A stretch of 53,362 nucleotides of DNA, taken from a virus. The stretch is taken from IMG/VR virus record IMGVR_UViG_3300047160_009474, positions 1-53,362 of that record, one strand, 5' to 3'. The position numbers and the translations under genes were made by a program. Below are positions 2,286-39,875 of the stretch, piece after piece. Every line of letters begins with the position of its first letter. Position 1 is the stretch's first letter. Below the pieces are notes generated by a model. That model had not been told where the DNA came from. It ran no database searches and saw nothing but the letters and a program-made list of their open reading frames with translations.

Positions 2286-2707
2286 ACCCCCCGAGGGGGC
2301 TCCCCCCAAAAGCCCGGACGCTAAGACCACAGATCGAAAGCACCGACACTCCCAGGGGACCCCCCTCCCACCAAGAGCTGGAGTTACCACAAAACCTACC
2401 CCCTGTCCAGTAACCCGTTGTGCCGCCAAATCTCCACCACCACGTCCTGCTGACGAAACCGCGCCTCGTTAATCCGTGAACGCACCTCCACCGGAAAGAC
2501 CCGCTCGGTCGCCATCGCCCGACACTCCCGCTGCCATAACCTCCCAACCGCAACCACATCCCGAGGCCGAGGTGCCCGCAACCGCACCGTTCTACGTGGA
2601 ACCGTTGCCATATCCCTGACACTGCCACATCGTCAGGCGAATCGTCAAAATACCCGGTGGATCGTCGGGGTGATCATCGCATAGCCCCCGGCGGCAAAAG
2701 GGATCAT

Positions 2708-2732
2708 GGGGTGGGGGGCGGTGGGGGTGGGG
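2708..2732 (+). other. Canonical G-quadruplex-forming tract GGGGTGGGGGGCGGTGGGGGTGGGG
   Basis: Four or more G-runs of at least 4 separated by 1-4 nt, read directly. It lies 19-43 nt beyond the stop of the minus-strand gene 2751..3215. Confidence 0.5.
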
Positions 2733-2750
2733 CTCGACACAAAGCATGCT

Positions 2751-3215
2751 TCATCCTGGCTCACTGGCTCCATTGTCACTCGACTGGCAACCATTGCTTT
2801 CCTGCTTTGGTGTAACTGGCTCAATATCAAGTACTTGTCCATTGTCGAGTGGACTACTACCAATAGTCGATTCTAGATTAAGTGACGAAAGCCCGTGATA
2901 CGTGGGGGGTTTTTCGGGGTGATACTGGCCCGGCCCGGGGATTTGGGCAACGTATGTCCATGCTCGGAATATGCGATCATACGCTCGGGTTAACCCGTCG
3001 TAAGCCTTAAAGCCAGTCGCTTTCAATAGGGCTTCATACAATCTCTCTTTCAATACGCTTAGGCGGGCAAGCTCCACCGCAATGGCTTCCGCACTGATTA
3101 CGGGTACTACCGGGCCGAGCGTACCGGGGTAAAGCTTCGCCAGTTTGTTCTGTTTCCGCTTTTCGTGGCCCCGGGCGGACATCTCCCGGGCATTTTGCGG
3201 AGTAAATAGCGGCAT
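2751..3215 (-). CDS. Hypothetical protein with a basic N-terminus (possible DNA-binding or small-terminase-like role, unverified)
   Basis: Track ORF 2751..3326 trimmed to the internal Met (MPLFTPQNAREMSARGHEKRKQNK...). Its acidic or polar C-terminus looks disordered. Confidence 0.45.
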   Translation of the reverse strand: MPLFTPQNAREMSARGHEKRKQNKLAKLYPGTLGPVVPVISAEAIAVELARLSVLKERLYEALLKATGFKAYDGLTRAYDRIFRAWTYVAQIPGPGQYHPEKPPTYHGLSSLNLESTIGSSPLDNGQVLDIEPVTPKQESNGCQSSDNGASEPG

Positions 3216-3317
3216 GCTGGGAATAGTCGCCCCGGGCCGCAGTGGGGTCAAGCAGTCGACTGGCTTTTGTGTCCCCCCAGGATGGAAAAATAAACCACGG
3301 TTGAGCGGGGTACACTG

Positions 3318-3346
3318 TTGACACATTGTGCCACATTCGGTAACTT
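3318..3346 (+). promoter_or_regulatory. Sigma70-like early promoter TTGACA-17-TAACTT with operator ATTGTGCCACATT in the spacer
   Basis: -35 at 3318-3323, -10 at 3341-3346, operator at 3325-3337. It sits at the head of the plus-strand early block. Confidence 0.6.
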
Positions 3347-3388
3347 AGGAGGAGTCGGGGCAATGAAGCCCGGCGAAACAAATAGAAA

Positions 3389-3397
3389 GTGACGCAG
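3389..3397 (+). promoter_or_regulatory. GTGACGCAG box 3 nt upstream of the start codon
   Basis: aatagaaaGTGACGCAGtttATG. The same extended context, aatagaaagtgacgcag, occurs at 4895-4911. Confidence 0.5.
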
Positions 3398-3400
3398 TTT

Positions 3401-3733
3401 ATGACATCGATCGAATTATTCAACGTTGCCCGGCAATTGGGCTTTCAACTCCAAAGTGTACAGAAATGCCCCGACTGTGGGCAGGTCTCAACTAAGCTCA
3501 CAAATTCAGTAGTGAAGTACTGCAAACATTGCGAGCATAATGTTACCGGAGGAGTTTGTTATCACGGTCAAACCGATGCCACAATTGATATGCTCGACTG
3601 CCAGGATTGTGGCGTTGCCCGGGCTGATTTTATCCGGGGCGCACAAGATACCATCCGGGAACAAATCACCTTTTTAGAGGATGTGCCTTGTGTCGACTAT
3701 GACGACTACAAAGCCAAATTCGCCCGCCTTTAG
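3401..3733 (+). CDS. Small Cys-rich (zinc-ribbon-like) early protein
   Basis: ATG at 3401; the track start at 3389 is the GTG inside the box. CxxC pairs: CPDCG, CKHCEH, CQDCG. Confidence 0.7.
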   Translation: MTSIELFNVARQLGFQLQSVQKCPDCGQVSTKLTNSVVKYCKHCEHNVTGGVCYHGQTDATIDMLDCQDCGVARADFIRGAQDTIREQITFLEDVPCVDYDDYKAKFARL

Positions 3734-3742
3734 ATAGTGCCC

Positions 3743-3786
3743 CACGTTGAGCCCCGGGCCACGCCTAGGGGTTCACTGTGACGCAG
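3743..3786 (+). repeat. Early intergenic hairpin element copy 1 (13-bp stem) ending in TGTGACGCAG
   Basis: CACGTTGAGCCCC (3743-3755) pairs with GGGGTTCACTGTG (3768-3780). It lies just after the stop at 3733. Confidence 0.75.
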
Positions 3787-3873
3787 TATTTAAACAATCA
3801 ATCGCCCGGGGCGCATGCCATCCGGGGACTTTTGTCCCCACTGCGTCACCATGCTCCTGGGCAAATCATGAGA

Positions 3874-3882
3874 GTGACGCAG
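3874..3882 (+). promoter_or_regulatory. GTGACGCAG box 1 nt upstream of the start codon
   Basis: gagaGTGACGCAGcATG. An inverted copy ACTGCGTCAC lies at 3840-3849. Confidence 0.5.
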
Positions 3883-3883
3883 C

Positions 3884-4609
3884 ATGATCAATTCGATCGA
3901 AACTATCCCCAGTAGGGGAATAAAACCCACAGTACTAAAACATCATCCCCGGTTCACCATTCCTGAACTTGTCCCCCTCAACGTGGGGCTTGCTTGGGAA
4001 TTAACTGGCGGACTATCGGAGCCCAGTAAAATGCCTTGCCATGGCTTTTCTACCCCTGCCCGGCGTTGCAACGTGGGGACAAAATTGCGCGAAGTCCCCG
4101 GTTCAATTTGTGAAATCTGTTACGCATTTGAACGTGGCAGGTATGGCTTTGAAGTAGTCCAGTTAGCTTTGGAGCGTAGGTACGAAGCTTTAATGAATGA
4201 GCCCCGGTGGACTGAAGCAATGGTCTGGCTCATTAATCGCTTTGAAAAGTCGGGGTACTTCCGCTGGTTTGATTCCGGGGATGTTCCTGACTTTGCCGCA
4301 TTGGAGAAGATCATTGAAGTAGTCCGCCAAACCCCCAGGATTAAACACTGGCTCCCTACCAAGGAATACGGGCTGATATCGCAATGGGTCAAAGCCCATG
4401 GGGCTTTTCCTAAAAACCTGACTGTACGCTTGTCCGCCTACATGGTGAACGGTGCCCCCCCTCGCGAGCTCGCCAAGCGTTTAGGGGTTTTAACATCCGG
4501 GGTTAAAAAACGGGGCTTTTCCTGCCCGGCATCATTGCAAGGCAATCAATGCGGGGAATGCCGCACCTGCTGGCAAAAACGGGGCAACGTTAACTATCAC
4601 AAGCATTAA
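3884..4609 (+). CDS. Cys-rich early protein, 241 aa (resembles, from memory, the phage 'gene product 88' type family; unverified)
   Basis: Long ORF with an ATG start. Motifs CEICYAFERGRYG, FRWFDSGD and a C-terminal CGECRTCW. Confidence 0.7.
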   Translation: MINSIETIPSRGIKPTVLKHHPRFTIPELVPLNVGLAWELTGGLSEPSKMPCHGFSTPARRCNVGTKLREVPGSICEICYAFERGRYGFEVVQLALERRYEALMNEPRWTEAMVWLINRFEKSGYFRWFDSGDVPDFAALEKIIEVVRQTPRIKHWLPTKEYGLISQWVKAHGAFPKNLTVRLSAYMVNGAPPRELAKRLGVLTSGVKKRGFSCPASLQGNQCGECRTCWQKRGNVNYHKH

Positions 4610-4614
4610 TTCCT

Positions 4615-4821
4615 ATGGAAGCCAATCAAAAGATCGTCAAATTGCGCCTTGTACGTAAAAGCGAAACAGCGGAATGGCTTGTGAAAGTTTGGGTGTGGGT
4701 AGGTGGCAAGTGGCTTTATTCGGAACTGGCAACGTATTACACGGATGATAAAGGTGACGCAGTAGCCACATTGTCAACCATGGCCCGGCAGTACTCCGCA
4801 CAAGGCTATTCACTTCTTTAA
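4615..4821 (+). CDS. Hypothetical small protein (68 aa)
   Basis: ATG lies 6 nt after the preceding stop. The sequence is non-repetitive and contains an internal in-frame GTGACGCAG (4754-4762). Confidence 0.6.
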   Translation: MEANQKIVKLRLVRKSETAEWLVKVWVWVGGKWLYSELATYYTDDKGDAVATLSTMARQYSAQGYSLL

Positions 4822-4902
4822 GCGCAATGATCACCCCATGCCCCCGGGCTGCAATCCCGTGGGGTATTGGGTGGCAATTACGCCACAAAAAACCAATAGA
4901 AA

Positions 4903-4911
4903 GTGACGCAG
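4903..4911 (+). promoter_or_regulatory. GTGACGCAG box 1 nt upstream of the start codon
   Basis: aatagaaaGTGACGCAGcATG. Confidence 0.5.
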
Positions 4912-4912
4912 C

Positions 4913-5227
4913 ATGAAGATTAGAAAACTCGCAACACCCCTCGGAAAGTACCGAGGCAAAAAGTACTATCGTTTCACCGTGTACTTTGAACAGTCTGGCA
5001 TAGGCTGGAATATCTCACGACCCATGGCGATCATTGCCAGTAGCGCGATCGAGGCATGCAACGCCATTCGGAACGAATTCGCCCATACGCTGGAGTACCC
5101 GGCGGAGTTTATTTGTTGCGGCCCGGCAGGGGGCAGGGTTGATCGCTTTGTCGGGTGGGAGTCAATGATCTGGGCTAAAATGGTTTCGACAATTCGCGGG
5201 CAGGAACAAATCCCACTACCCCTCTAA
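4913..5227 (+). CDS. Hypothetical protein (104 aa)
   Basis: ATG-initiated ORF directly behind the box. Confidence 0.65.
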   Translation: MKIRKLATPLGKYRGKKYYRFTVYFEQSGIGWNISRPMAIIASSAIEACNAIRNEFAHTLEYPAEFICCGPAGGRVDRFVGWESMIWAKMVSTIRGQEQIPLPL

Positions 5228-5231
5228 ACTT

Positions 5232-5606
5232 ATGACATCCAAACATAAAGAGCTCTTTTTTGTGAGCTCAACCGATGGTTGCCTACTGAGGCAAGATACT
5301 TGTCAGGTCGTACGCAAAAACTATTGCGGCCACCATATGCACATTGCGGACAATGAGGATTTTAAGGCTACACTCCGGGCCGGGCCTTACACTTTCCCGG
5401 GCTGCTATCCGCTCTTCTTTATCACCCGGGATAGTGGCGCAATTTGCTTCCCATGTGCTCAGAGGGAAGCCCGGCGAATAATGTCGAGCATTCGATCGGA
5501 TTGTAATGACGGGTGGCGCATAGAGGCATGCGACGTAAACTATGAGGATCCTCAACTCATGTGTGACCATTGCTCAAAGCCGATCCAATCAGCCTACGGA
5601 GATTAG
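5232..5606 (+). CDS. Cys-rich hypothetical protein (124 aa)
   Basis: ATG lies 5 nt after the preceding stop. Motifs FPGCYPLFFITRDSGAICFPCA and LMCDHCSKPI. Confidence 0.7.
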   Translation: MTSKHKELFFVSSTDGCLLRQDTCQVVRKNYCGHHMHIADNEDFKATLRAGPYTFPGCYPLFFITRDSGAICFPCAQREARRIMSSIRSDCNDGWRIEACDVNYEDPQLMCDHCSKPIQSAYGD

Positions 5607-5676
5607 CTAACACATGGGGCCAGGACAAACATTCTGGCCCCTTTCCGCATAGAACCAAAAACCAAAAAAGAGGAAA

Positions 5677-5685
5677 GTGACGCGC
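5677..5685 (+). promoter_or_regulatory. Variant box GTGACGCGC 4 nt upstream of a start codon
   Basis: aggaaaGTGACGCGCtgatATG. Confidence 0.4.
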
Positions 5686-5689
5686 TGAT

Positions 5690-5860
5690 ATGGAAACAGT
5701 ACCAAGCACACAGACGGGGCCGATCGAGAGTTCGATCGAGAGCTCGAACCCGATCGAGAGGCCCGATGTCTTTGCCATCTACCAGCTCCTCCGCAGGCAC
5801 AAGATTGAGGCTAAATATGTGGTCGAGTTTGCCCGCATTTTGCTCAACTCCACAGCGTAA
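5690..5860 (+). CDS. Small ORF (56 aa), below the track threshold
   Basis: METVPSTQTGPIESSIESSNPIERPDVFAIYQLLRRHKIEAKYVVEFARILLNSTA. It is preceded by the box variant and carries CGATCGAGAG three times. Confidence 0.45.
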   Translation: METVPSTQTGPIESSIESSNPIERPDVFAIYQLLRRHKIEAKYVVEFARILLNSTA

Positions 5861-5871
5861 TCTGATTGATT

Positions 5872-5915
5872 CACATTGAGCCCCGGGCTAAGGTCTAGGG
5901 GTTCACTGTGACCCA
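5872..5915 (+). repeat. Early intergenic hairpin element copy 2
   Basis: CACATTGAGCCCC (5872-5884) pairs with GGGGTTCACTGTG (5898-5910). It lies just after the stop at 5860. Confidence 0.75.
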
Positions 5916-5953
5916 AATAGGCCACATTAACATTAACCATCAAAACTAAGAAA

Positions 5954-5962
5954 GTGACGCAG
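5954..5962 (+). promoter_or_regulatory. GTGACGCAG box 3 nt upstream of the start codon
   Basis: aagaaaGTGACGCAGaatATG. Confidence 0.5.
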
Positions 5963-5965
5963 AAT

Positions 5966-6352
5966 ATGAGTGAACAAAAACCGAAACCCGATCAAGAGCT
6001 CGACCACAGACGATCGAGAGCTAACCCAATGAGCATTCTCGACTACATCAAGGCAGTGGATGAGGCCTTGGAACATCGCTACTGTGTCAGCATTGCGGAG
6101 GCTGGCATTGATGCGGCTGAGTTACTCACCGCCCAGGCGGAAGGCTGGAGCCCAGAGCAGTATGTCGAGTGGTTTGGAGAGAAGCACGACCTGACCGAGA
6201 AGAGCCAGTGGGACCTAGCTAAGGCCGTTGCGGAGTTAGCCCCCCAGTTCTGTTCCATGTGCGAGGGTCCCTTGATGCTGTTAGGAAGCTTGGGAAACCT
6301 CGCGCACTACCGGTGCCGTAATTGTGGCTTAGACTTTTCCCGTGGAGTGTAG
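5966..6352 (+). CDS. Hypothetical protein with a C-terminal zinc-ribbon-like motif (128 aa)
   Basis: ATG at 5966; the track start at 5954 is the GTG of the box. C-terminal CSMCEG...YRCRNCG. Confidence 0.7.
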   Translation: MSEQKPKPDQELDHRRSRANPMSILDYIKAVDEALEHRYCVSIAEAGIDAAELLTAQAEGWSPEQYVEWFGEKHDLTEKSQWDLAKAVAELAPQFCSMCEGPLMLLGSLGNLAHYRCRNCGLDFSRGV

Positions 6353-6360
6353 CCTACTCT

Positions 6361-6407
6361 CACGTTGAGCCCTTCTCAGGCTGGGGGGAGGGTTCACCGT
6401 GGCGCAG
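6361..6407 (+). repeat. Early intergenic hairpin element copy 3 (compensatory changes keep the stem)
   Basis: CACGTTGAGCCCT (6361-6373) pairs with AGGGTTCACCGTG (6389-6401). It lies just after the stop at 6352. Confidence 0.75.
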
Positions 6408-6512
6408 GCATTTTAACGCAGGTGACACATCATCATGCGGATGAAAAACAGAATAACCACAAACAACATCGATCGAGGCATCAAAACTGCCTACGGGGCG
6501 ATCGGGGGAAAG

Positions 6513-6521
6513 GTGACGCAG
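6513..6521 (+). promoter_or_regulatory. GTGACGCAG box overlapping a candidate GTG start
   Basis: ggaaagGTGACGCAGTGgca. Confidence 0.4.
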
Positions 6522-6703
6522 TGGCACAAGAGACAAAATACAAAGTATGGATTCATGTGACTAAAACCGATGCCTTTGATCCTGAGGATTCGACCGATAT
6601 CGCGGCAATGGATGAAGTAGCCTCGTTTCAAAGCGAAGACGAGGCCTTTCGATTTGTCGAGCGGCTAAAGTCGTTTCTGCCGATCATCGACCAGTCGGAA
6701 TAA
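6521..6703 (+). CDS. Small acidic hypothetical protein (~60 aa; start uncertain)
   Basis: In frame with track ORF 6365..6703, whose TTG start would run through the hairpin repeat. The GTG at 6521 abuts the box. The C-terminal part, VWIHVTKTDAFDPEDSTDIAAMDEV..., looks protein-like. Confidence 0.4.
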   Translation: MAQETKYKVWIHVTKTDAFDPEDSTDIAAMDEVASFQSEDEAFRFVERLKSFLPIIDQSE

Positions 6704-6717
6704 AGCAAAGATTCCAG

Positions 6718-6747
6718 TTGCAGGTTGTGCCACAACGAGCCTACTTT
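6718..6747 (+). promoter_or_regulatory. Sigma70-like promoter TTGCAG-18-TACTTT with perfect palindromic operator GTTGTGCCACAAC
   Basis: Operator at 6724-6736 abuts the -35. It lies upstream of the coupled gene set 6882-7805. Confidence 0.5.
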
Positions 6748-6881
6748 AGGACGTTTGTGACACAGGGACACATAGAGATAGACTTTTGTCCTGCTCCCAG
6801 GGAGCCGTGGGTTGCGCCCCGGTCTTTCAGGCTTTGCGGCCTGACTGCGTCACCCCCTGGGGGTAGGGCATTTTCGCATTT

Positions 6882-7049
6882 ATGAAAGCACCACAACTAC
6901 TCACACCCTTCGAACTGGCAATGCTGGCCGCACCATTCATAACCAACCTCAACCTGACCACCGAGGAAGCCTTCCTCCGGGCTCAGGAGCTGTTCTATGC
7001 GGCGGCGGATTACCTTCGGGAAAATGAAATACACCCAGATCAAAAGTAA
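6882..7049 (+). CDS. Small ORF (55 aa), below the track threshold
   Basis: MKAPQLLTPFELAMLAAPFITNLNLTTEEAFLRAQELFYAAADYLRENEIHPDQK. Its stop overlaps the next ATG (TAATG). Confidence 0.5.
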   Translation: MKAPQLLTPFELAMLAAPFITNLNLTTEEAFLRAQELFYAAADYLRENEIHPDQK

Positions 7050-7309
7050 TGCACCCGCCGGTTGGAAGCATGATCACCATTTGGCCTGAGGGTTCTCCCG
7101 AGGCCGAGGCCACTGCCACGCTATTGCTTCTCTCGGACAATCAGTTGAGTGCGGCCTTCGCCTTTGAGCACCTGCCCCGGTGGTACAACTCCTTTCCCGG
7201 GACCTTTATCAGCCTGGGCGAGGTGATCATGTTGGTGATCCGCCAGGACAAGACCGACCCCTGGACGGATCTGCGCGACGGTAAACACTACACAGTTAAA
7301 GAATTATGA
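7049..7309 (+). CDS. Hypothetical protein (86 aa)
   Basis: ATG overlaps the upstream stop, and its own stop overlaps the next ATG (ATGA). Confidence 0.6.
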   Translation: MHPPVGSMITIWPEGSPEAEATATLLLLSDNQLSAAFAFEHLPRWYNSFPGTFISLGEVIMLVIRQDKTDPWTDLRDGKHYTVKEL

Positions 7310-7485
7310 AAAGCCACCGACAAAAGCCCACCGACCGCAGAATGGACGCAGCGATCAAGGTTAAACTTCCCCGGCCCTGGTACCAAGATCTGAAGTTCCT
7401 GGCTGCCTGCGACTACGAGACAATTTCAATGCAGGTCCGCAGGGCGATTCGCCTATACCTCGATACCCGCCGGATCCACAAATGA
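7306..7485 (+). CDS. Ribbon-helix-helix (CopG/Arc-like) small DNA-binding protein (59 aa), below the track threshold
   Basis: AAIKVKLPRPWYQDLKFLAACDYETISMQVRRAIRLYL fits a beta-strand plus two helices pattern. ATGA overlaps on both sides. Confidence 0.55.
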   Translation: MKSHRQKPTDRRMDAAIKVKLPRPWYQDLKFLAACDYETISMQVRRAIRLYLDTRRIHK

Positions 7486-7805
7486 AAAAGTTTGGCCGAT
7501 ATATCCTGGTCGATGGCAAGCCGGTGCCTGAGCTGGACCTGATCAGGTGGGCCGAGTGGTTTGGTAAAACCTCCAATCGCGCTGTGGCCAGCACCCAGGT
7601 GGGTAAATCCAACATCGATACCTGCTTTCTGGGGATCGACCACAATTTCCACGTTAATGGACCCCCCATCCTCTGGGAGACACTCGTCTTTGGCGGACCA
7701 CTCCAGGGCACCATGGACCGTTGCGCCGGGTCCCGGGAACAGGCCGAGGCCATGCATGCCAGCATGGTTGAACGGGTCAAGCAGGCAAAAAAGATTTGTC
7801 CCTAA
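7482..7805 (+). CDS. Hypothetical protein (107 aa)
   Basis: ATGA-coupled to the RHH gene. Motif FLGIDHNFHVNGPPILWETLVFGG. Confidence 0.65.
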   Translation: MKKFGRYILVDGKPVPELDLIRWAEWFGKTSNRAVASTQVGKSNIDTCFLGIDHNFHVNGPPILWETLVFGGPLQGTMDRCAGSREQAEAMHASMVERVKQAKKICP

Positions 7806-7845
7806 CCGTCCGTAACCAACAACACAAAAAAAGAAAGGTCTGAAA

Positions 7846-8064
7846 ATGAACGATACACCAGCAACAAAACAACCCGACCAACGCATTCGCGCTTTGGTTT
7901 GGATGATCCTGTGCATGCTCGCCTATCTGGCCGTGATCACCGCCACTTACTTCTTATTCTTCCAGAGGGGTGACTGGCGCAGTGGGGTCGGAGTCTTTGG
8001 GGGCCTGTGCGTGATCACGTACCTACTGGCGATAGTTGCGCTCTTCAAACCTCACCGCCAATAA
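7846..8064 (+). CDS. Small membrane protein with two hydrophobic helices (72 aa)
   Basis: Hydrophobic stretches LVWMILCMLAYLAVITATYFLFF and VGVFGGLCVITYLLAIVALF. Confidence 0.65.
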   Translation: MNDTPATKQPDQRIRALVWMILCMLAYLAVITATYFLFFQRGDWRSGVGVFGGLCVITYLLAIVALFKPHRQ

Positions 8065-8088
8065 CCTCCTAACCGAGCTAACCCTATT

Positions 8089-8910
8089 ATGAAGAACAAA
8101 TTCTGTGCTGGCCAGTTTGGCGTTTCGATCCTGCTGGCTTCAATCTTTGCGACTCTCACCCCCATGCAGGCCGGTGCCGACAGTGGCGTGACAGTCAAAG
8201 TGCAAACTCTCACCGTCTATGTGCCTGCACCACCAGCTGGCCAACCGTGGCAACTGCCTGCCTCCATCCCGGAGAAGCTGCGAGGCAAAGTTCTGGAGCT
8301 CATCGGAATCACTCCCCCAGGCGTTCCCATAGTCATCGCGCCGGAAGGAACCTCACCCACCCTCATTCAACAGGCCAAAACCGCCGCCATAAAGCAGTCC
8401 ATTGTCACGCAGGGAGCCGGGCCTGCCGGGCCAACTCCACAGTCCTGCCTGGCCTGTGTTCTGGTCATCATCCTGGTCGTTGTCTGCGGAGTGGCCATCT
8501 ACGTGGTTTGGAAATGCGCTAAAAAGATAGACAAGGTCAACACCAACACCGGTCCAGGCGACCCGGCCATTCTGCGCCAGCTTCCACCGGCTCAACCCTC
8601 GGCCTTCCCCCCAACCTTAAGCGGTGACGACTCCAACTCGACCAATGCCTTCTGCACCATCGAAGGGACTACCGACCTCTCCGCTCCCAACTGGGCACCG
8701 ATGTTCACGCTGGTGTGTGTCACCAATGCTGACGGGATCCCCAGCGTTTATGCCATGAACCCGAGCAATATTCTGGTCGGTGCCTCATCGGTAATAACCA
8801 ACTCGGCCAACCCGGCTGAACTGGATACCACCACTCCGCTCAACCTGCCCTATCCAGGTCCAGGCCCAACACCACCCAACCTCTTCTTTCGGATGAACCT
8901 GCACAACTAA
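8089..8910 (+). CDS. Signal-peptide-bearing, membrane-anchored surface protein (273 aa); candidate lysogenic-conversion or exclusion gene
   Basis: N-terminal VSILLASIFATLTPMQAGA, a central helix CLACVLVIILVVVCGVAIYVVW, a Pro-rich linker, and a position next to the integrase. Confidence 0.65.
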   Translation: MKNKFCAGQFGVSILLASIFATLTPMQAGADSGVTVKVQTLTVYVPAPPAGQPWQLPASIPEKLRGKVLELIGITPPGVPIVIAPEGTSPTLIQQAKTAAIKQSIVTQGAGPAGPTPQSCLACVLVIILVVVCGVAIYVVWKCAKKIDKVNTNTGPGDPAILRQLPPAQPSAFPPTLSGDDSNSTNAFCTIEGTTDLSAPNWAPMFTLVCVTNADGIPSVYAMNPSNILVGASSVITNSANPAELDTTTPLNLPYPGPGPTPPNLFFRMNLHN

Positions 8911-8932
8911 AAGCAATCTCTTCTAAAAAGGG

Positions 8933-8975
8933 ACACCCCCTGGCTGATAAAGGCCAAGGGGTGTTTCTGTTTTTA
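8933..8975. terminator. Bidirectional intrinsic terminator between convergent genes
   Basis: ACACCCCCTGGC (8933-8944) pairs with GCCAAGGGGTGT (8953-8964) with one mismatch. A T-run follows at 8964-8975 and an A-run precedes at 8925-8930. Confidence 0.7.
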
Positions 8976-8987
8976 CTGCTGCCCTAC

Positions 8988-10199
8988 TCAGTCCTTCAGG
9001 ACAGCTTCGGGGGTTAACGCCCAGAACTTGGCAGCCTCCTCCGGTTTAACCAGTTTGCGGTAGTGGGAGAAGAGAATCCCCCAGTCGCCATGCCCCATTG
9101 CGGCCATGGTCTTGTCCACCCCGTGAATCGGCAGGAAGTTGGAGGCAAACGTGTGCCGCAGGACATCCTTGCCCCAACCATTCCAGAGGATTTTCTTGTA
9201 GTAATGGTGCTTGGTCGGATCCTTCTTGCGGGTCTTCTTGCCTTTGACGTTGGTTAACGTGATGAGCCCGGCTGCGGCCCGGACATCCCGGAACCGTTCG
9301 GCATGATTCTTGGGGTTGTACTCACCACCTGGGACCGCCAACCATGCCTTGAGTGTGTCATGGATTGGGACATAGCGTAACTGCTTGTCCTTGGCATGCG
9401 AGGCGGGGACTTCCAGCATGTCCCCCTGGATATGCACCTTGCTCAATTTGCGGGCTTCCCGTATCGGTCGGCACCCGGCAAACATCCCGCAAGCGATGAA
9501 GGGAATCAGGCCAGGATCGGTCTTCAAGGCGGCTCTCAGGAGTGCCCTGCATTGCTCCACAGTTAAGATATGAGGGGCTTTGTCGAACCCGGGCATCCTT
9601 TTCTTCGGAATCATCTTAAAAGCGTCCGTTGGCAGTTCTGTGACATACTTGTGTTTCTTGCAGTAACCAAAAAAGTTCTTCAAGGCGCACAGGTTGGCAT
9701 TCTTGTTCTGGGGGTGCATATCCTGCTGGGTAAACCACTGCCTGAGCATGTCAATGGTCACCAGGGCGACCTCCAGTTGCTCCCGGCCCCGGATGAACTT
9801 GTTAAGCTGGCACCGGTAAAACTTGAGCGTGTCCTTGGACAGACCGTCCGCCTTTTTATCGACCATGTATTCGTTAAAGGCATCCTCCAGGGTCCGCCGG
9901 GCCAGGGGTTTATTGGCAATGTTCTGGAAGGCCTGCCACACGGTGCGGAGCGCAATTCCCTTGCGGCTAATCTCCTCCAAGATCGTGAGCGTATCTAATC
10001 TGACTGCCGGGTTCATCTGGGTCCAAAACTCCGACTCCCCGTTCAGGGCCAGGACCGATTCCTGCTCGGCTTTGGCAGCCTCATACCCATCGAAGAACTT
10101 GCGCTGCCGTTTCTTCTCACCGTTCTCATCGGGCGTGAACCAGGACACCATGTATTGCTCTTTGTCCCGGACTTTTACTTTGTTGATCGTCACTTTCAT
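8988..10199 (-). CDS. int: Tyrosine recombinase (phage integrase), 403 aa
   Basis: C-terminal catalytic pattern ...LRHTFASNFL...GHGDWGILFSHYRK (R, HxxR, H, Y). N-terminal SAM-like or arm-binding region. Confidence 0.85.
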   Translation of the reverse strand: MKVTINKVKVRDKEQYMVSWFTPDENGEKKRQRKFFDGYEAAKAEQESVLALNGESEFWTQMNPAVRLDTLTILEEISRKGIALRTVWQAFQNIANKPLARRTLEDAFNEYMVDKKADGLSKDTLKFYRCQLNKFIRGREQLEVALVTIDMLRQWFTQQDMHPQNKNANLCALKNFFGYCKKHKYVTELPTDAFKMIPKKRMPGFDKAPHILTVEQCRALLRAALKTDPGLIPFIACGMFAGCRPIREARKLSKVHIQGDMLEVPASHAKDKQLRYVPIHDTLKAWLAVPGGEYNPKNHAERFRDVRAAAGLITLTNVKGKKTRKKDPTKHHYYKKILWNGWGKDVLRHTFASNFLPIHGVDKTMAAMGHGDWGILFSHYRKLVKPEEAAKFWALTPEAVLKD

Positions 10200-15759: not shown

Positions 15760-15992
15760 ACCAGCACCCGTGATGTATGTCCTTGGTCACGGTGAACAAA
15801 ATCAAGGCCCATGCTTCCCTCGGGTAGGGACTCCGCAAGAGTGCGGGGCCGGTCAGGAAAACCGAGGTTAAATAAGCGACCGGGGGTTCCCTCCTACACT
15901 GCCTCCTAGGCGGACTCGGCTTAGGGGGGGTAGGGGGGTTCTGCCTGAGACAGACTTTGATGAGGAAGAGAAGAAATGTTGAGAGTTCGATT

Positions 15993-17282: not shown

Positions 17283-17479
17283 CGGTGATGATCATAGCCG
17301 CCCGTTCAGTGGTTGACCAGCACACGGACATCTACTTCCTGGACCCCAAAGACATCGTCTCGATTCAGTCGACCCTCGACAAGATCGTCGTCTTTTTGTT
17401 TAACGGAAAGGAACTGCACACCCAAAAACCCATCCGATTTGTTGAGAAATATGGGGTGGACACGATTGTGCCACATTAG
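17279..17479 (+). CDS. Small hypothetical protein (66 aa), weakly LytTR-like
   Basis: ATGA-coupled ATG at 17279. DIYFLDPKDIVSIQSTLDKIVVFLFNGKELHTQKPI. Confidence 0.45.
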   Translation: MTVMIIAARSVVDQHTDIYFLDPKDIVSIQSTLDKIVVFLFNGKELHTQKPIRFVEKYGVDTIVPH

Positions 17480-17485
17480 TATAGT
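17457..17485 (+). promoter_or_regulatory. Sigma70-like promoter TGGACA-17-TATAGT with operator ATTGTGCCACATT in the spacer
   Basis: Operator at 17465-17477 is identical to 3325-3337. It overlaps the stop of 17279..17479 and lies upstream of 17547. Confidence 0.55.
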
Positions 17486-37524: not shown

Positions 37525-38121
37525 TCAGGTGGTGCATTGCTTCCAGCACCTGGGCACGGCTGCGAATTGTTTGGCCATTTCCTCGTTCACATCGGGACAC
37601 TGGGTGTCCAACGGGAACCACACGGCCACTCGGGTCCAGCAGCCGCAGATGCCGCAGGCCCGCAGGTCATGGTCGTAAGGAGTGGATTTGCTGCCGGTGC
37701 CCGAAAGGACATTCACCAGTTCCGAGCACAGACCGGCGCAGGGTTTGGAAAAGAAGACTGCCTGGGGACAGCTCGCGCAGATTGCGGCCCGCTCGTTTGC
37801 GGTGGCCTGGGCCACTAACTGCGAGCCGGTGAGCTTGTGCCGGGCAAAGGTCATCGTGCCCCGCACGATTTCGCCCATGCTCCAATGGCTCTTGCGCCGG
37901 GTGCCGGGCGGAACATTCTCGCAGTCATCGGGGTAGTTGGCGCAGATGTCCCGCTCCACCTCCTGCTCGAAGTCCAATCCCACCGGGACACCGTTGGCCT
38001 TGCGCTCCTGGTAGGCGAAGTGCATCAACTGCTCGAAGGTGGTGCCCCTGACTTCCTGGCGGGTCAGCGGGTCACGCCAGAGAAAAGAACCGCCATAGGG
38101 GATTTGCGAGATGATCCTCAT
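37525..38121 (-). CDS. Cys-rich hypothetical protein between terminase and portal (198 aa)
   Basis: ATGA-coupled to terL. CASCPQ...CAGLC...CGICGC cluster. Confidence 0.55.
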   Translation of the reverse strand: MRIISQIPYGGSFLWRDPLTRQEVRGTTFEQLMHFAYQERKANGVPVGLDFEQEVERDICANYPDDCENVPPGTRRKSHWSMGEIVRGTMTFARHKLTGSQLVAQATANERAAICASCPQAVFFSKPCAGLCSELVNVLSGTGSKSTPYDHDLRACGICGCWTRVAVWFPLDTQCPDVNEEMAKQFAAVPRCWKQCTT

Positions 38122-39875
38122 GCCTCGATTTCCTCCGGGACATAGCCCACCTGGTCTGACTCCTCGTACACGCTGTTAACCTCCTGGGCGTAGTTGAAGA
38201 ATTCCTCACTGCGGGCGACCGTCTCGCCGATGGGTTGGATGCGGAAACCCCGCTGGCGGGCAACCTCGATGATCATCACAAAGCAGTCGGACAAGTCGGG
38301 CGACTCACCGAACTGCTCCTTGTAATCCCGCTTGTTCATCATCACGATCCGCTGCTTCGAATCGTCAAACTCGATGGTGCAAAGCTCTCGGGCCGTCAGC
38401 TGGTCCAACCCGCGCAACTGCTCATGGTTCATCGCATCGCGAGAGCGGAAGTACATCTCAGTGCGCTTATTCCAGTAAACCTCCTTTGCGGGTCGGATGT
38501 CCTCGGGCGAGCAGGAGTCTTCACTGGCCGCTCCCGCGAATTCGATGCGGATGATCTTCGGGCTCCAGATGCGTTGGACGATGTCGCACAGACCCCCGCC
38601 CTCGCCGGTGGCATCGATGCCCAGGTTTTGGGGTTCGCAGGAGTATTCGACTCCGTTGTATTGAAAGGATTCGCATTGGCGTTTTAACTGTTCCGCAAGT
38701 TGGAAGTGGACCGGGTTTTTCGATGAGGCGTCGATGGTGAGGATGACGGGCGGCATGCATTCGATGCCGGTGTTCCCGTTAGAGATTTCTCCCATTTTGG
38801 CAAATCGAAGAGCGGGCCGGTCGCCCCCGCCGAAAGCTGGGTCGAAAGCTCCAATAATTCGGAAATTTCTTCCGGTGAATACGTGGCGTTCGAAACCTTT
38901 TGCATTGATGATTCCTACTTCGCTAAAGACAGTTTTAGTGAGCCCGATGGGTGGCCAGAACCCCCGTTCGTTCGACCAATAGGAGGGGCTGTTCTCCCCG
39001 CCTGCCAGTGCCCGGCGGCTCTCCACCCGGCGCAGGGAAGGCAAGTGCCTGGAAACAGTTTTACCATTCAGAATGTTGGGCGACTTCTCGGCATCGAACC
39101 GCAGCACAATGCCGGTCCTGCCGTTCTGTTGGGGCTTGCTCTCCCACTCCTCGGTCTCGACGCTGACACTTGCCCACCCGTCCTTGGGCTCGCAGAACTT
39201 CCCCATCTCATCCAGCCGCGAGCGGGGGTTGCCGATGACCACCATTAGGAATTCTTCGCAGGCCGCAGACAGGTTGAACCCCGCTTCGAAGATGGCATGC
39301 GGCACGGCTGTTGCCTCATCTATGACAACCATCTGGCGGCGGGTGTGGTGGCCTTTGATGTTGTCGGCCACCTTGAAGACTGAGCCCTCGCGCACGGCGA
39401 TGCCGATGATGGCATGTTTATCGTCGCCCTTGTTGGACTGCCAGATCATGCGCGAATCCACAAAGTTGCCGTACTGCCGAGGACCCAAAGCCGAGAAGAG
39501 CCGCTGGATCTCCGACCAGCCCCGCCGCCTCAGAGCCTTGGCGGTGGTGGAGCAAAAGATGACGCTGGATTCCTCGGGGCAACAGAGCCACCAAATCCCC
39601 GCAAACCCAGCGACATTAAAGGTTTTTGCGCTCCCCGCGCAGCCCGCCAGGCCGACCCACTCATTGAAGCAGCAGGCATCGATGATGTTGTTAGTCCAAG
39701 GGTGATACTCGAAATGCTTGGGCAGGAGCAGATTGGCAACCGCCCGGAAAAGGTCAGGCCGTGGCGGCATTCCCCGCATCGGGCCATTGCGATGACTGAA
39801 CGCCCAGCGGTCGTAGGAGAGCTGATCCAGGCCAGGTTTTAAGCCATAGGTTCTGACCGTAGCCGTGGTAGGCAT
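38118..39875 (-). CDS. terL: Terminase large subunit (585 aa)
   Basis: Walker A-like GCAGSAKT, Walker B MVVIDEAT, then VIGNP and a C-terminal nuclease-sized half. First gene of the morphogenesis operon. Confidence 0.8.
   Translation of the reverse strand: MPTTATVRTYGLKPGLDQLSYDRWAFSHRNGPMRGMPPRPDLFRAVANLLLPKHFEYHPWTNNIIDACCFNEWVGLAGCAGSAKTFNVAGFAGIWWLCCPEESSVIFCSTTAKALRRRGWSEIQRLFSALGPRQYGNFVDSRMIWQSNKGDDKHAIIGIAVREGSVFKVADNIKGHHTRRQMVVIDEATAVPHAIFEAGFNLSAACEEFLMVVIGNPRSRLDEMGKFCEPKDGWASVSVETEEWESKPQQNGRTGIVLRFDAEKSPNILNGKTVSRHLPSLRRVESRRALAGGENSPSYWSNERGFWPPIGLTKTVFSEVGIINAKGFERHVFTGRNFRIIGAFDPAFGGGDRPALRFAKMGEISNGNTGIECMPPVILTIDASSKNPVHFQLAEQLKRQCESFQYNGVEYSCEPQNLGIDATGEGGGLCDIVQRIWSPKIIRIEFAGAASEDSCSPEDIRPAKEVYWNKRTEMYFRSRDAMNHEQLRGLDQLTARELCTIEFDDSKQRIVMMNKRDYKEQFGESPDLSDCFVMIIEVARQRGFRIQPIGETVARSEEFFNYAQEVNSVYEESDQVGYVPEEIEA

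What the first reader, a model, noticed from the sequence alone, without database searches (positions are those of the whole stretch)
3743..6407. Thrice-repeated early intergenic hairpin with compensatory base changes
Each copy sits immediately after a stop codon (3733, 5860, 6352) and 50-115 nt before the next gene:
- 3743-3786 CACGTTGAGCCCC-12 nt-GGGGTTCACTGTG
- 5872-5915 CACATTGAGCCCC-13 nt-GGGGTTCACTGTG
- 6361-6407 CACGTTGAGCCCT-15 nt-AGGGTTCACCGTG

Stem position 4 is G-U, A-U and G-C in the three copies. Position 13 is C-G, C-G and U-A. The loops are unrelated. Pairing rather than sequence is therefore being preserved.

No U-tract follows, so these are not standard intrinsic terminators. 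The 3' arm runs into the GTGACGCAG box (GTGGCGCAG in copy 3; copy 2 has GTGACCCAA).

Candidate roles are an RNA processing or stability element, a protein-binding (antitermination or translational control) site, or a hairpin-type promoter. Hairpin promoters are used by the virion RNA polymerase of N4-like phages, although the N4 hairpins are much smaller.
Basis: seen in the sequence. Interest (0 to 1): 0.65.

Follow-up and report, generated by a model that had tools for sequence, protein, structure and literature searches.

The report
Repeated RNA hairpins between phage genes
A novel soil phage carries four copies of a roughly 60-nt structured RNA hairpin, each starting at the stop codon of a gene in one operon; they most likely cut or protect the long messenger RNA between genes, which is a familiar kind of phage element in a new sequence form.

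Summary
The three hairpins are at the stated coordinates. They match a 20-base two-arm pattern found 3 times in the window and never in shuffles, and they fold 8-9 kcal/mol better on the + (mRNA) strand.

The flanks add lower helices, so each element is about 60 nt with 22-25 stacked bp, starting at the stop codon.

A fourth, sequence-diverged copy (4822-4883) has the same layout of helices, mismatches and a bulge. Across the four copies, 15 of 27 pairs change on both sides and stay paired.

None has a usable U-tract, although the same operon ends in a textbook bidirectional U-tract terminator. No sigma-70-like promoter lies in these spacers.

No copy exists in IMG/VR, GTDB genomes, JGI metagenomes, Rfam or INPHARED, so cross-genome covariation cannot be tested.

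Best reading (about 0.4): intercistronic punctuation hairpins of a repressor-controlled early polycistronic mRNA. They resemble the T7 RNase III processing and 3'-stabiliser signals in size and design, and T4-type PeSL cassettes in layout. The N4 hairpin-promoter idea is not supported. Function is inferred, not shown.

The parts
3731..3792 (+). HP1. Full structure, 25 bp: P0 UAGAUA/UAUUUA (includes the UAG stop of the 110-aa gene), 1x1, P1 UGC/GCA, 2x2 loop, P2 CACG/UGUG, U.C mismatch, P3 UGAGCCCC/GGGGUUCA, bulged A, P4 GGGC/GCCU, loop CAC.
   Evidence: -32.5 kcal/mol on +, -23.8 on -; CM 73.8 bits
4822..4883 (+). HP4, a fourth, diverged member found here. It has the same order of helices and interruptions (P0 GCG/CGC, P1 AAU/AUU, 2x2, P2 UCACCC/GGGUGG, C.U mismatch, P3 AUGCCCC/GGGGUAU, bulged U, P4 CGGG/CCCG, 7-nt loop) and starts right after the UAA of the 68-aa gene.
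   Evidence: Best + strand CM hit outside the training set (12.2 bits, E 0.23). Rank 4 of 763 hairpins by tree-edit distance to HP1/HP2.
5861..5921 (+). HP2. Full structure, 24 bp, starting right after the UAA of the 56-aa gene.
   Evidence: CM 79.3 bits
6352..6409 (+). HP3. Full structure, 22 bp, starting at the last base of the UAG of the 128-aa gene. The apical part is different sequence but still helical, with no bulge.
   Evidence: CM 54.9 bits
5616..5641 (+). HP5. An unrelated simple perfect 10-bp hairpin (GGGGCCAGGA/UUCUGGCCCC) followed by UUUCC, in the fifth intergenic gap of the same unit. It is a different class and a possible weak terminator or attenuator.
3778..3786 (+). GTGACGCAG box at the 3' base of HP1. 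It forms the 3' strands of P2 and P1. Variants lie at 6399-6407 (GTGGCGCAG, HP3) and 5908-5916 (GTGACCCAA, HP2).
   Evidence: (family D7)
3389..3397 (+). First of six AGAAAGTGACGCAG boxes that sit 0-4 nt before start codons. The starts are at 3401, 3884, 4913, 5690 (variant box 5677-5685), 5966 and 6521; the other boxes are at 3874-3882, 4903-4911, 5954-5962 and 6513-6521.
   Evidence: (families D1-D4)
3841..3849 (+). Anti-box CUGCGUCAC (the box on the - strand). In the predicted fold it forms a perfect 9-bp helix with the box at 3874-3882, in front of the GP88-family gene.
   Evidence: probability that the box is unpaired about 0.1
3318..3346 (+). Promoter-like site P1: TTGACA-N17-TAACTT, with ATTGTGCCACATT in the spacer. 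It lies upstream of the unit that holds all the hairpins and boxes. Sister sites are at 6718-6747 and 17457-17485.
   Evidence: read from the sequence
8929..8975 (.). Canonical bidirectional intrinsic terminator (A5, 12-bp GC-rich stem, T-tract) between the end of the + strand operon and the convergent integrase gene. It serves as the internal control for what a terminator looks like in this genome.

Best explanation
HP1-HP4 are cis-acting RNA structures on the sense strand of one early polycistronic transcript, which runs from promoter-like P1 at 3318 to about 6700. Each starts at the stop codon of a cistron and stacks 22-25 bp, interrupted by a 2x2 internal loop, a pyrimidine-pyrimidine mismatch and usually a 3' bulge.

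I propose they punctuate the mRNA in two steps. A double-strand-specific endonuclease (host RNase III type) nicks the 3' side near the internal loop. Alternatively, 3'-to-5' exonucleases simply stall at the hairpin. Either way, the upstream cistron keeps a protective 16-17 bp hairpin at its 3' end. The downstream cistron is released with its own A-rich leader and AGAAAGUGACGCAG start region.

Shown here: the structure, its strand specificity, its position, the covariation among four copies, and the lack of terminator or promoter features. Inferred: cleavage or protection, the enzyme, and the effect on expression.
For: 1. The elements are real and repeated: 3 exact-pattern copies against 0 in shuffles, and z-scores of -2.4 to -4.2.
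2. They act at the RNA level on the sense strand. HP1-3 fold 8-9 kcal/mol better on the + strand, and one G.U pair is invariant in all four copies.
3. The architecture is conserved while the sequence diverges. All four MFE structures show the same order of helices and interruptions. On the structure-registered alignment, 15 of 27 pairs change on both sides and all cells pair, against 76% in shuffles and 25-50% when the 3' partners are slid by 1-3 columns. RNAalifold recovers the structure. HP4 is the best + strand CM hit outside the training set and ranks 4 of 763 hairpins by architecture.
4. The lower helices are built from unrelated flank sequences more often than chance, p about 0.005. This brings every copy to 22-25 bp. 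The ideal RNase III substrate is 22 bp, two A-helical turns. [quoted passage not shown] T7 has five such signals in its early polycistronic precursor (PMC3867540).
5. They are not terminators. None has a U-tract adjacent to the stem, while the operon ends in a canonical A5-stem-T5 terminator.
6. They are not promoters. No sigma-70-like site lies in these spacers, while the genome's recognisable promoters are consensus-like.
7. A conserved Y.Y mismatch, a G.U, a bulge and a 2x2 loop are more than a generic stable hairpin needs. The plain hairpin HP5 in the same unit shows that a generic form exists alongside.
Against: There are no RNA data: no RNA run holds the sequence. The host is unknown, so its RNase III and its terminator rules are unknown.

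Only four copies exist, all from one genome, so covariation counts copies that may share ancestry. The four-way alignment was hand-fitted to each copy's own predicted fold, which inflates the paired percentage (caveat).

HP4's CM score alone is not significant (E 0.23), and HP4 folds equally well on both strands. Arm identity of 92-100% among HP1-3 could reflect recent duplication or gene conversion rather than selection. Stable hairpins without a U-tract can still attenuate transcription in some bacteria.
Confidence: 0.4

Rival explanations
1. PeSL-like composite cassettes. The hairpin is a transcription attenuator or leaky terminator (factor-independent without a U-tract, or Rho-assisted through the C/A-rich, G-poor spacer that follows). 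The downstream conserved AGAAAGTGACGCAG region restarts or boosts expression. The repeated cassettes also serve as recombination points for shuffling ORFan genes.
For: The layout from stop codon to ATG is: GC-rich stem-loop with C and G runs, an A-rich spacer, a conserved motif, then the start. It recurs between ORFans. Most genes of the unit have no homologs. This matches the published PeSL description, where the stem-loop alone reduced downstream expression like a strong terminator (PMC2839356; PMC4122927). HP5 with UUU looks like a weak terminator.
Against: No sigma-70-like promoter lies in any of these spacers, although the genome's own promoters are consensus-like. There is no U-tract. 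The conserved mismatch, bulge and internal loop are unnecessary for a terminator. No relatives are available to show cassette exchange. The phage is not T4-like: it has an integrase and a distant terminase.
Confidence: 0.25
2. Binding sites for a specific RNA-binding regulator, phage-encoded or host. This could be a nut/put-style antitermination signal loaded onto RNA polymerase at each intergenic gap. It could also be a translational operator that shares the GUGAC(G)CAG recognition element with the six start-codon boxes.
For: Arm sequence is 92-100% conserved, including a non-Watson-Crick U.C, a G.U and a bulged base; such irregularities are the kind of feature RNA-binding proteins commonly recognise. 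Invariant CAC/GUG and GCCC/GGGU blocks survive even in HP4. HP1 and HP3 carry the same 9-mer that precedes the start codons. Several small zinc-ribbon proteins are encoded in the unit.
Against: No recognisable N, Q or other RNA-binding family is present. Lambda-type boxB is a 5-bp stem with a pentaloop and there are two sites per genome, not four 60-nt hairpins. HP2 and HP4 lack the box. No canonical terminators downstream of the hairpins within the unit would need antitermination.
Confidence: 0.15
3. A DNA-level element: single-stranded DNA hairpins or imperfect palindromes used as recombination or cassette boundaries (attC-like, or IS200/REP-like), or as operator sites for a DNA-binding protein.
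For: The structure is conserved while the sequence varies. There are extrahelical bases, an unpaired central bubble and a variable terminal loop, and the element sits directly after each ORF, which echoes integron attC sites. G.T pairs are tolerated in ssDNA. A tyrosine recombinase gene lies at the end of the operon.
Against: There is no RYYYAAC/GTTRRRY pair at the base. The GTTGAGC in the 5' arm faces ACY, not AAC. The integrase matches only generic Xer-like models well below cutoff, and no match to an integron-integrase model was reported. The distance between arms varies (14, 15 and 17 nt between the pattern's two arm blocks in HP1-3), which is unfavourable for a dimeric dsDNA operator. No HUH or transposase family was found among the 52 proteins scanned, which cover the unit's 14 genes and the largest ORFs but not the whole window. 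No copies occur in any other genome.
Confidence: 0.08
4. A recently duplicated, functionally neutral or selfish short palindromic repeat (MITE- or REP-like) that happens to sit in the intergenic gaps.
For: Similarity boundaries are sharp at the ends of the roughly 45-nt core in HP1-3. The family is private to this contig.
Against: All copies share one orientation and all start at a stop codon. The apical and lower helices are rebuilt from different sequence. No target-site duplications were noticed by eye (not tested systematically), and there are no copies elsewhere in the 53 kb.
Confidence: 0.07

Closest known systems
Bacteriophage T7/T3 early-mRNA RNase III processing signals (R0.3, R0.5, R1, R1.1, R1.3)
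   Same: Several related irregular hairpins of about 60 nt, roughly two helical turns long, with an internal loop. They lie between cistrons of an early polycistronic mRNA. Single-strand cleavage leaves a stabilising 3' hairpin (PMC3867540; Dunn and Studier 1983, from my own knowledge).
   Different: There is no sequence similarity. The host and its RNase III are unknown and cleavage is untested. This is a temperate phage using host-type promoters. The internal loop is a small symmetric 2x2 rather than the larger asymmetric T7 loop. Each element starts exactly at the stop codon.
PeSL (promoter-early stem-loop) cassettes of T4-type phages
   Same: A repeated intergenic cassette running from the upstream stop to the downstream ATG: a G/C-run stem-loop, an A(T)-rich stretch, a conserved motif, then the start codon. 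It flanks ORFans in an early region (PMC2839356, PMC4122927).
   Different: No sigma-70 promoter was detected in the cassette. The stem-loop here is a long irregular structure with conserved defects rather than a simple terminator stem. The phage lineage is unrelated, and recombination is untested.
Intercistronic decay-barrier hairpins and REP elements (Rhodobacter puf operon, E. coli malE-malF)
   Same: Stable stem-loops lacking a U-tract, placed just after a stop codon inside an operon. They protect the upstream segment from 3' exonucleases (established knowledge, not re-read here).
   Different: Those are generic stable stems or host-wide repeats. This family has conserved irregularities and occurs only in this phage unit.
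Lambda nut (boxA/boxB) and HK022 put antitermination RNAs
   Same: Repeated RNA hairpins in early operons, just downstream of a gene's stop (nutR lies after cro), with an adjacent conserved linear box.
   Different: boxB is a 15-nt hairpin and boxA precedes it. There are two sites per genome. No N-like protein was found here.
Integron attC sites
   Same: Structure rather than sequence is conserved. There are extrahelical bases, a central unpaired bubble and a variable terminal loop, placed directly after each cassette ORF in one orientation.
   Different: The core-site consensus and an integron integrase were looked for and not found.

Membership tests
Canonical intrinsic (Rho-independent) terminator | GC-rich stem-loop immediately followed by a run of U (at least 4-5 U within about 8 nt) | tested here: not met
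   The terminator scan of 2600-9200 lists none of HP1-4. The tails are ACGCAGUA, CCCAAAUA, CGCAGGCA and CAAUUACG. A positive control exists at 8929-8975.
Canonical intrinsic (Rho-independent) terminator | Position at the end of a transcription unit | tested here: not met
   All four lie between co-oriented genes of one unit, with the next start 30-115 nt downstream.
N4-type virion-RNAP hairpin promoter | Short DNA hairpin (5-7 bp stem, 3-nt loop) upstream of early genes | tested here: not met
   Stems are 16-17 bp in the core and 22-25 bp in full, with loops of 3-7 nt, and they sit directly after stop codons. The N4 dimensions are from my own knowledge.
N4-type virion-RNAP hairpin promoter | A giant virion RNA polymerase encoded by the phage | tested here: inconclusive
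   No polymerase family was found in the ORFs of 403-1464 aa tested with Pfam, PHROGs or NCBIfam. The largest ORF is 1464 aa, and the phage carries an integrase. Divergent polymerases could escape these profiles.
T7-type RNase III processing signal | Irregular hairpin of about two helical turns (about 22 bp) with an internal loop or mismatches | tested here: met
   25, 24, 22 and 23 stacked bp, with a 2x2 loop, a 1x1 Y.Y mismatch and a bulge. The criterion is from PMC3867540.
T7-type RNase III processing signal | Intercistronic position in an early polycistronic transcript | tested here: met
   All copies lie between genes downstream of promoter-like P1 and upstream of P2. That this unit is 'early' is inferred from the operator-bearing promoters.
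T7-type RNase III processing signal | Site-specific cleavage by RNase III | not testable with these tools
   No RNA-seq run holds the region, and the host is unknown.
PeSL cassette (T4-type phages) | Repeated intergenic unit of stem-loop, AT-rich stretch and start region, flanking ORFans | tested here: met
   ORFan status
PeSL cassette (T4-type phages) | Strong sigma-70-like early promoter inside the cassette | tested here: not met
   No promoter-like site in the five spacers. By eye, the best -10-like strings (TAGAAA, TAAGAA) lack the final T.
PeSL cassette (T4-type phages) | Cassette-mediated indels between related genomes, or mini-circles | not testable with these tools
   No related genome was found.
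Lambda nut site | boxB 5-bp stem with a pentaloop, preceded by boxA, plus an N-type protein | tested here: not met
   The hairpin dimensions differ. The linear box follows rather than precedes the hairpin. No N-like family was found.
Integron attC | R'' RYYYAAC and R' GTTRRRY pairing at the base of the structure | tested here: not met
   The basal helices are CAC(R)/(Y)GUG, and the outer helices have no conserved sequence.
Integron attC | Integron integrase (IntI) nearby | tested here: not met
   The integrase gives only weak XerC/XerD-like hits far below cutoff, and no match to an integron-integrase model was reported.
Any Rfam family | Match to a curated covariance model | tested here: not met
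   A permissive cmscan of 2600-9200 gives only one chance-level hit elsewhere, on the - strand.

The most novel reading that the evidence does not exclude
The hairpins, the nine GTGACGCAG boxes and the two anti-boxes form one private post-transcriptional regulon of the first early unit. A single RNA-binding protein or endonuclease, possibly one of the unit's zinc-ribbon ORFans, would recognise GUGAC(G)CAG in two settings: single-stranded in front of six start codons, and presented at the base of a defined irregular hairpin. It would thereby couple mRNA cutting or protection to translation start-site control across the whole unit. The anti-box at 3841-3849 would act as a built-in switch for the GP88-family gene.
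Probability: 0.1. Interest if true: 0.7.

Novelty: new member of a known kind. Interest (0 to 1): 0.42.

Why it matters
If the hairpins are processing or stability signals, this temperate soil phage, from a lineage with no cultured or sequenced relatives, has independently arrived at the T7 design. In that design, one promoter makes one long early RNA, and structured punctuation marks set the dose of each small gene.

The four copies carry natural compensatory variation and precisely conserved defects: a Y.Y mismatch, a G.U pair, a bulge and a 2x2 loop. Together they form a ready-made mutational series for asking what a non-model RNase III, or an unknown RNA-binding protein, reads in its substrate.

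The co-occurring start-codon box, 9 exact copies in 3.5 kb, is the less ordinary feature and deserves its own follow-up.

Tried and rejected
1. Searching for relatives in order to test covariation.
- INPHARED blastn of 3300-7300: no match.
- IMG/VR: the hairpin pattern gave 96 single hits; all 96 were re-read and only one showed even a partial 5' extension, so none is a real copy.
- GTDB genomes: 29 single hits, about the number I estimated by hand for chance (about 37), none with the 5' CAYR extension or the box.
- JGI metagenomes: 31 single hits, likewise none with the extension or the box.
- The 128-aa protein and the 191-aa divergent protein have no relatives.
- GP88 homologs reach at most 62% identity. 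They sit in unrelated gene neighbourhoods without hairpin or box, and the CM finds nothing in 447 kb of those loci.
- Integrase homologs reach at most 41% identity. Their one readable locus lacks the element.
- Soil runs hold only near-identical low-depth fragments with no variants, and there are no RNA runs.

2. The box as a generic Shine-Dalgarno sequence. Rejected, because most genes of the contig have no such motif upstream.

3. The box or spacer as a sigma-70 promoter or a leaderless-mRNA promoter. Neither a consensus match nor a fixed distance supports it (read by eye).

4. A ribosome-driven switch in which termination at 3731-3733 frees the first box to capture the anti-box. In constrained folds, the switch appears only if 22 nt from the stop (3731-3752) are held open, which is more than a terminating ribosome should cover. 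It is kept only as a side note.

5. tRNA-like or T-loop reading of GGTTCA: ARAGORN finds nothing.

6. Coding explanations. The TTG inside the 5' arm opens ORFs of 46, 11 and 112 codons in the three copies, so no conserved frame exists.

7. SECIS, PYLIS or readthrough signals. The stops are UAG, UAA, UAG and UAA, with no consistent downstream frame.

8. CRISPR-repeat mimicry. GTTCACTG resembles the start of type I-F repeats (recalled from memory), but the rest does not align and the unit length is wrong.

Full report
**What the window is.**
The window is a complete 53,362-bp contig. The protein database lists the window's own proteins on a contig of exactly that length. Near-identical fragments occur only in low-depth soil metagenomes.

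It is phage-like and probably temperate. A tyrosine integrase lies at 8988-10199 on the - strand and a large terminase at 38118-39875 on the - strand. Nothing close exists in INPHARED. Most of its genes have no family assignment.

**The observation.**
The three hairpins are exactly as described. The two-arm pattern TTGAGCCC-N8-24-GGGTTCACYGTG occurs three times on the + strand and never in 100 shuffles.

As RNA, the + strand versions fold at -28, -26.2 and -27.8 kcal/mol (z = -4.2, -3.3, -2.4). The - strand versions fold at -23.3, -17.6 and -19.8 kcal/mol. With flanks included, the gap is 8-9 kcal/mol.

The asymmetry comes from G.U pairs. One of them, at stem position 9, is present in every copy. 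A U.C mismatch at position 5 is also present in every copy.

In HP1 and HP2 they hold a bulged A and a 4-bp helix (GGGC/GCCU, GGGC/GUCU). In HP3 a different sequence (UCUC/GGGG) continues the stem. True loops are 3, 4 and 7 nt.

**Gene context.**
A promoter-like site, TTGACA-N17-TAACTT (3318-3346), carries ATTGTGCCACATT in its spacer. It lies next to a divergently oriented 191-aa ORF.
- The same 13-mer sits in the spacer of a second, better promoter, TGGACA-N17-TATAGT, at 17457-17485.
- A variant sits in TTGCAG-N18-TACTTT at 6718-6747.
- This looks like one operator shared by several early promoters. That is my basis for accepting "early"; it is an inference.

Downstream of P1, the + strand genes are:

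| Gene | Coordinates |
|---|---|
| g1 | 3401-3733 |
| g2 (GP88 family, PF17338) | 3884-4609 |
| g3 | 4615-4821 |
| g4 | 4913-5227 |
| g5 | 5232-5606 |
| g6 | 5690-5860 |
| g7 | 5966-6352 |
| g8 | probably 6521-6703 |

After P2, the genes are tightly packed, with no hairpins or boxes. The operon ends at a textbook bidirectional terminator: A5, a 12-bp GC-rich stem and a T-tract at 8929-8975.

**A fourth copy and a fuller structure.**
Every intergenic gap of the P1 unit starts with a strong hairpin right at the stop codon.
- The gap after g3 holds HP4 (4822-4883). Its sequence differs from HP1-3, but its predicted structure has the same order of elements.
- That order is: outer helix P0; a 1x1 mismatch; a 3-bp P1; a 2x2 internal loop; P2 closing with CAC/GUG; a pyrimidine-pyrimidine 1x1 mismatch; P3 with the G.U followed by CCC/GGG; a single bulged base on the 3' side; a 4-bp P4; and the loop.
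- The gap after g5 holds an unrelated plain 10-bp hairpin followed by UUUCC (HP5, 5616-5641).

Independent support for HP4 comes from two tests.
- A covariance model built only from HP1-3 ranks HP4 as the best + strand hit outside its training set in the whole window. The score is 12.2 bits with E = 0.23, which is not significant on its own.
- Among 763 single hairpins of at least 20 bp predicted on both strands of the window, HP4 is fourth closest in tree-edit distance to HP1 and HP2.

The flanks of all four cores pair more than shuffled flanks do. The summed gain is -26.9 kcal/mol against -14.1 +/- 4.4, p about 0.005, although each copy taken alone gives only p = 0.04-0.17. The complete elements are 58-62 nt with 25, 24, 22 and 23 stacked base pairs.

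**Covariation.**
Within HP1-3 there are only four arm substitutions, and all of them keep pairing. Position 4 shows G.U, A-U and G-C. Position 13 shows C-G changing to U-A.

I also made a structure-registered four-way alignment, padded with N so that MAFFT kept the register.
- 27 pairs were counted; 15 have changes on both sides and 100% of cells pair.
- The control values are 76% paired in column shuffles and 25-50% when the 3' partners are slid by 1-3 columns.
- RNAalifold returns the same structure, with 15 of 25 pairs compensated.

One caveat applies. The alignment was fitted by hand to each copy's own fold, and the four copies come from one genome. The numbers therefore show consistency, not independent evolutionary events. 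Invariant columns are CAC/GUG in P2 and GCCC/GGGU in P3.

**What they are not.**
- Not canonical terminators. None is listed by the terminator scan, none has a U-run next to the stem, and the genome does use canonical terminators.
- Not promoters of the type this genome visibly uses.
- Not N4-type hairpin promoters. The dimensions and position are wrong, and no polymerase was detected.
- Not attC sites. There is no core-site pair and no integron integrase.
- Not any Rfam family.
- Not tRNA-like.
- Not coding. The frames opened by the TTG in the 5' arm are inconsistent.

**No relatives.**
Exact-pattern scans of IMG/VR, GTDB species genomes and JGI metagenomes returned only single hits: 96, 29 and 31. 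For GTDB this is about the number I estimated by hand for chance (about 37). None of these hits has the extended arms or the box; one IMG/VR hit shows a partial 5' extension only.

Protein-anchored searches reached only distant, non-syntenic loci without the element.

**The GTGACGCAG box.**
The exact 9-mer occurs 9 times against 0.41 expected. All copies lie in 3389-6853: seven on the + strand and two on the - strand.
- Five exact + strand copies and one variant (5677-5685) lie 0-4 nt before the start codons of g1, g2, g4, g6, g7 and g8, within the longer motif AGAAAGTGACGCAG.
- Most other genes of the contig have nothing like it, nor a clear Shine-Dalgarno sequence. It is therefore specific to this unit.
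- At the hairpins, the box is exact in HP1 and 8/9 in HP3. It is only 6/9 in HP2 and 4/9 in HP4.
- In every copy these positions are the 3' strands of P2 and P1, and they pair with the 5' flank. The box is thus not a constant part of the hairpin.
- One - strand copy (3841-3849) reads on the mRNA as a perfect anti-box. It is predicted to sequester the box in front of g2; the probability that the box is unpaired is about 0.1.
- A ribosome-triggered switch between the two boxes is not well supported.

**Mechanism.**
I commit to intercistronic punctuation of the early mRNA.
- The hairpins begin exactly where translation ends. They are about two helical turns long and carry the kinds of defects (internal loop, mismatch, bulge) that confine RNase III to one strand. 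The result would be a 3'-terminal stabilising hairpin, as at the five T7 early signals (PMC3867540).
- Even without cleavage, they would block 3' exonucleases and protect the upstream cistron.
- The conserved defects, together with a plain hairpin (HP5) in the same unit, argue for specific recognition rather than mere stability.

The layout (stem-loop, A-rich spacer, conserved start region, ORFan genes) is closest to PeSL cassettes (PMC2839356, PMC4122927). Membership fails, however, on the promoter.

My estimates are:

| Reading | Probability |
|---|---|
| Processing / stability | about 0.40 |
| Attenuator / PeSL-like cassette | 0.25 |
| Specific RNA-binding regulator site | 0.15 |
| DNA-level recombination or operator element | 0.08 |
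| Neutral repeat | 0.07 |

**Verdict.**
This is a real, well-defined, strand-specific structured RNA family with four copies, private to a novel soil phage. It is a new member of a familiar class of phage intercistronic elements. Its function is inferred from anatomy only. Interest is moderate. The accompanying start-codon box and anti-box are the more unusual features.

Noticed in passing
window 3389-6853 (boxes at 3389, 3778, 3874, 4754, 4903, 5954, 6513 on +; 3841, 6845 on -; variant 5677-5685): GTGACGCAG occurs 9 times exactly (0.41 expected), only in the first early unit. Six copies or variants, within AGAAAGTGACGCAG, sit 0-4 nt before start codons. Genes elsewhere in the contig lack it and mostly lack a Shine-Dalgarno sequence. 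It is a unit-specific start-region motif of unknown role: a translational operator, a nuclease target, or a stoperator-like DNA site.
   Followed up: partly
window 3841-3849 with 3874-3882: A perfect 9-nt anti-box is predicted to sequester the box directly in front of the GP88-family gene (unpaired probability about 0.1). The alternative pairing with the hairpin-associated box at 3778-3786 costs about 7.6 kcal/mol. This may be a cis switch on that gene's translation.
   Followed up: partly
window 3318-3346, 6718-6747, 17457-17485: Three sigma-70-like promoters carry the same palindromic element in their spacers: ATTGTGCCACATT twice and GTTGTGCCACAAC once. This is probably a shared repressor operator defining the early promoters. 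The divergent 191-aa ORF (2751-3326, - strand) has no family hit.
   Followed up: partly
window 3347-3392: A canonical AGGAGG lies 10 nt before a 9-codon upstream ORF (MKPGETNRK, 3363-3392). Its UGA stop lies inside the box in front of g1, suggesting a possible leader peptide or termination-reinitiation arrangement. If transcription starts about 7 nt after the -10, the AGGAGG may not be in the RNA at all.
   Followed up: no
window 5616-5641: A plain perfect 10-bp hairpin plus UUUCC sits after the stop of the 124-aa gene. It is a second, simpler class of intergenic hairpin in the same unit.
   Followed up: partly
window 8929-8975: A textbook bidirectional intrinsic terminator (A5, 12-bp stem, T-tract) lies between the end of the + strand operon and the convergent integrase gene.
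   Followed up: yes
window 5721-5747 and 5989-6022: CGATCGAGAGCT(CGA) is repeated four times inside the 5' parts of two neighbouring genes (g6 and g7), and a strong coding-region hairpin lies at 5716-5765 on both strands. This may be a shared short peptide repeat or a recombination scar.
   Followed up: no
window 6410-6520: The long gap after HP3 holds a second predicted hairpin that covers a GGUGA and an AUG (6435). There is also a 41-codon ORF (6435-6560) overlapping the box and the GTG start at 6521. The true start of the next gene is uncertain.
   Followed up: no
L205 2380-2425, 3140-3175, 7800-7840: The closest integrase relative (41% identity) sits on a contig with its own, different repeated intergenic cassette: TTGACA followed by the palindrome (T/C)ACCCTGAT(T/G)(A/T)A(T/A)GGGTAAC, a few bases before ATG. 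This looks like promoter-operator units giving near-leaderless mRNAs.
   Followed up: no
L102 1880-1990 and L104 2240-2340: Dense arrays of short ATTGG / CACATTGG-type repeats lie next to GP88 homologs in two IMG/VR contigs. They are unrelated to the hairpins.
   Followed up: no
window 15889-15938 and 42909-42959: These are the most stable local hairpins of the contig outside the early unit (-31.9 and about -30 kcal/mol). The first is a C/G-run stem followed by UUCUG in an apparent gene gap.
   Followed up: no
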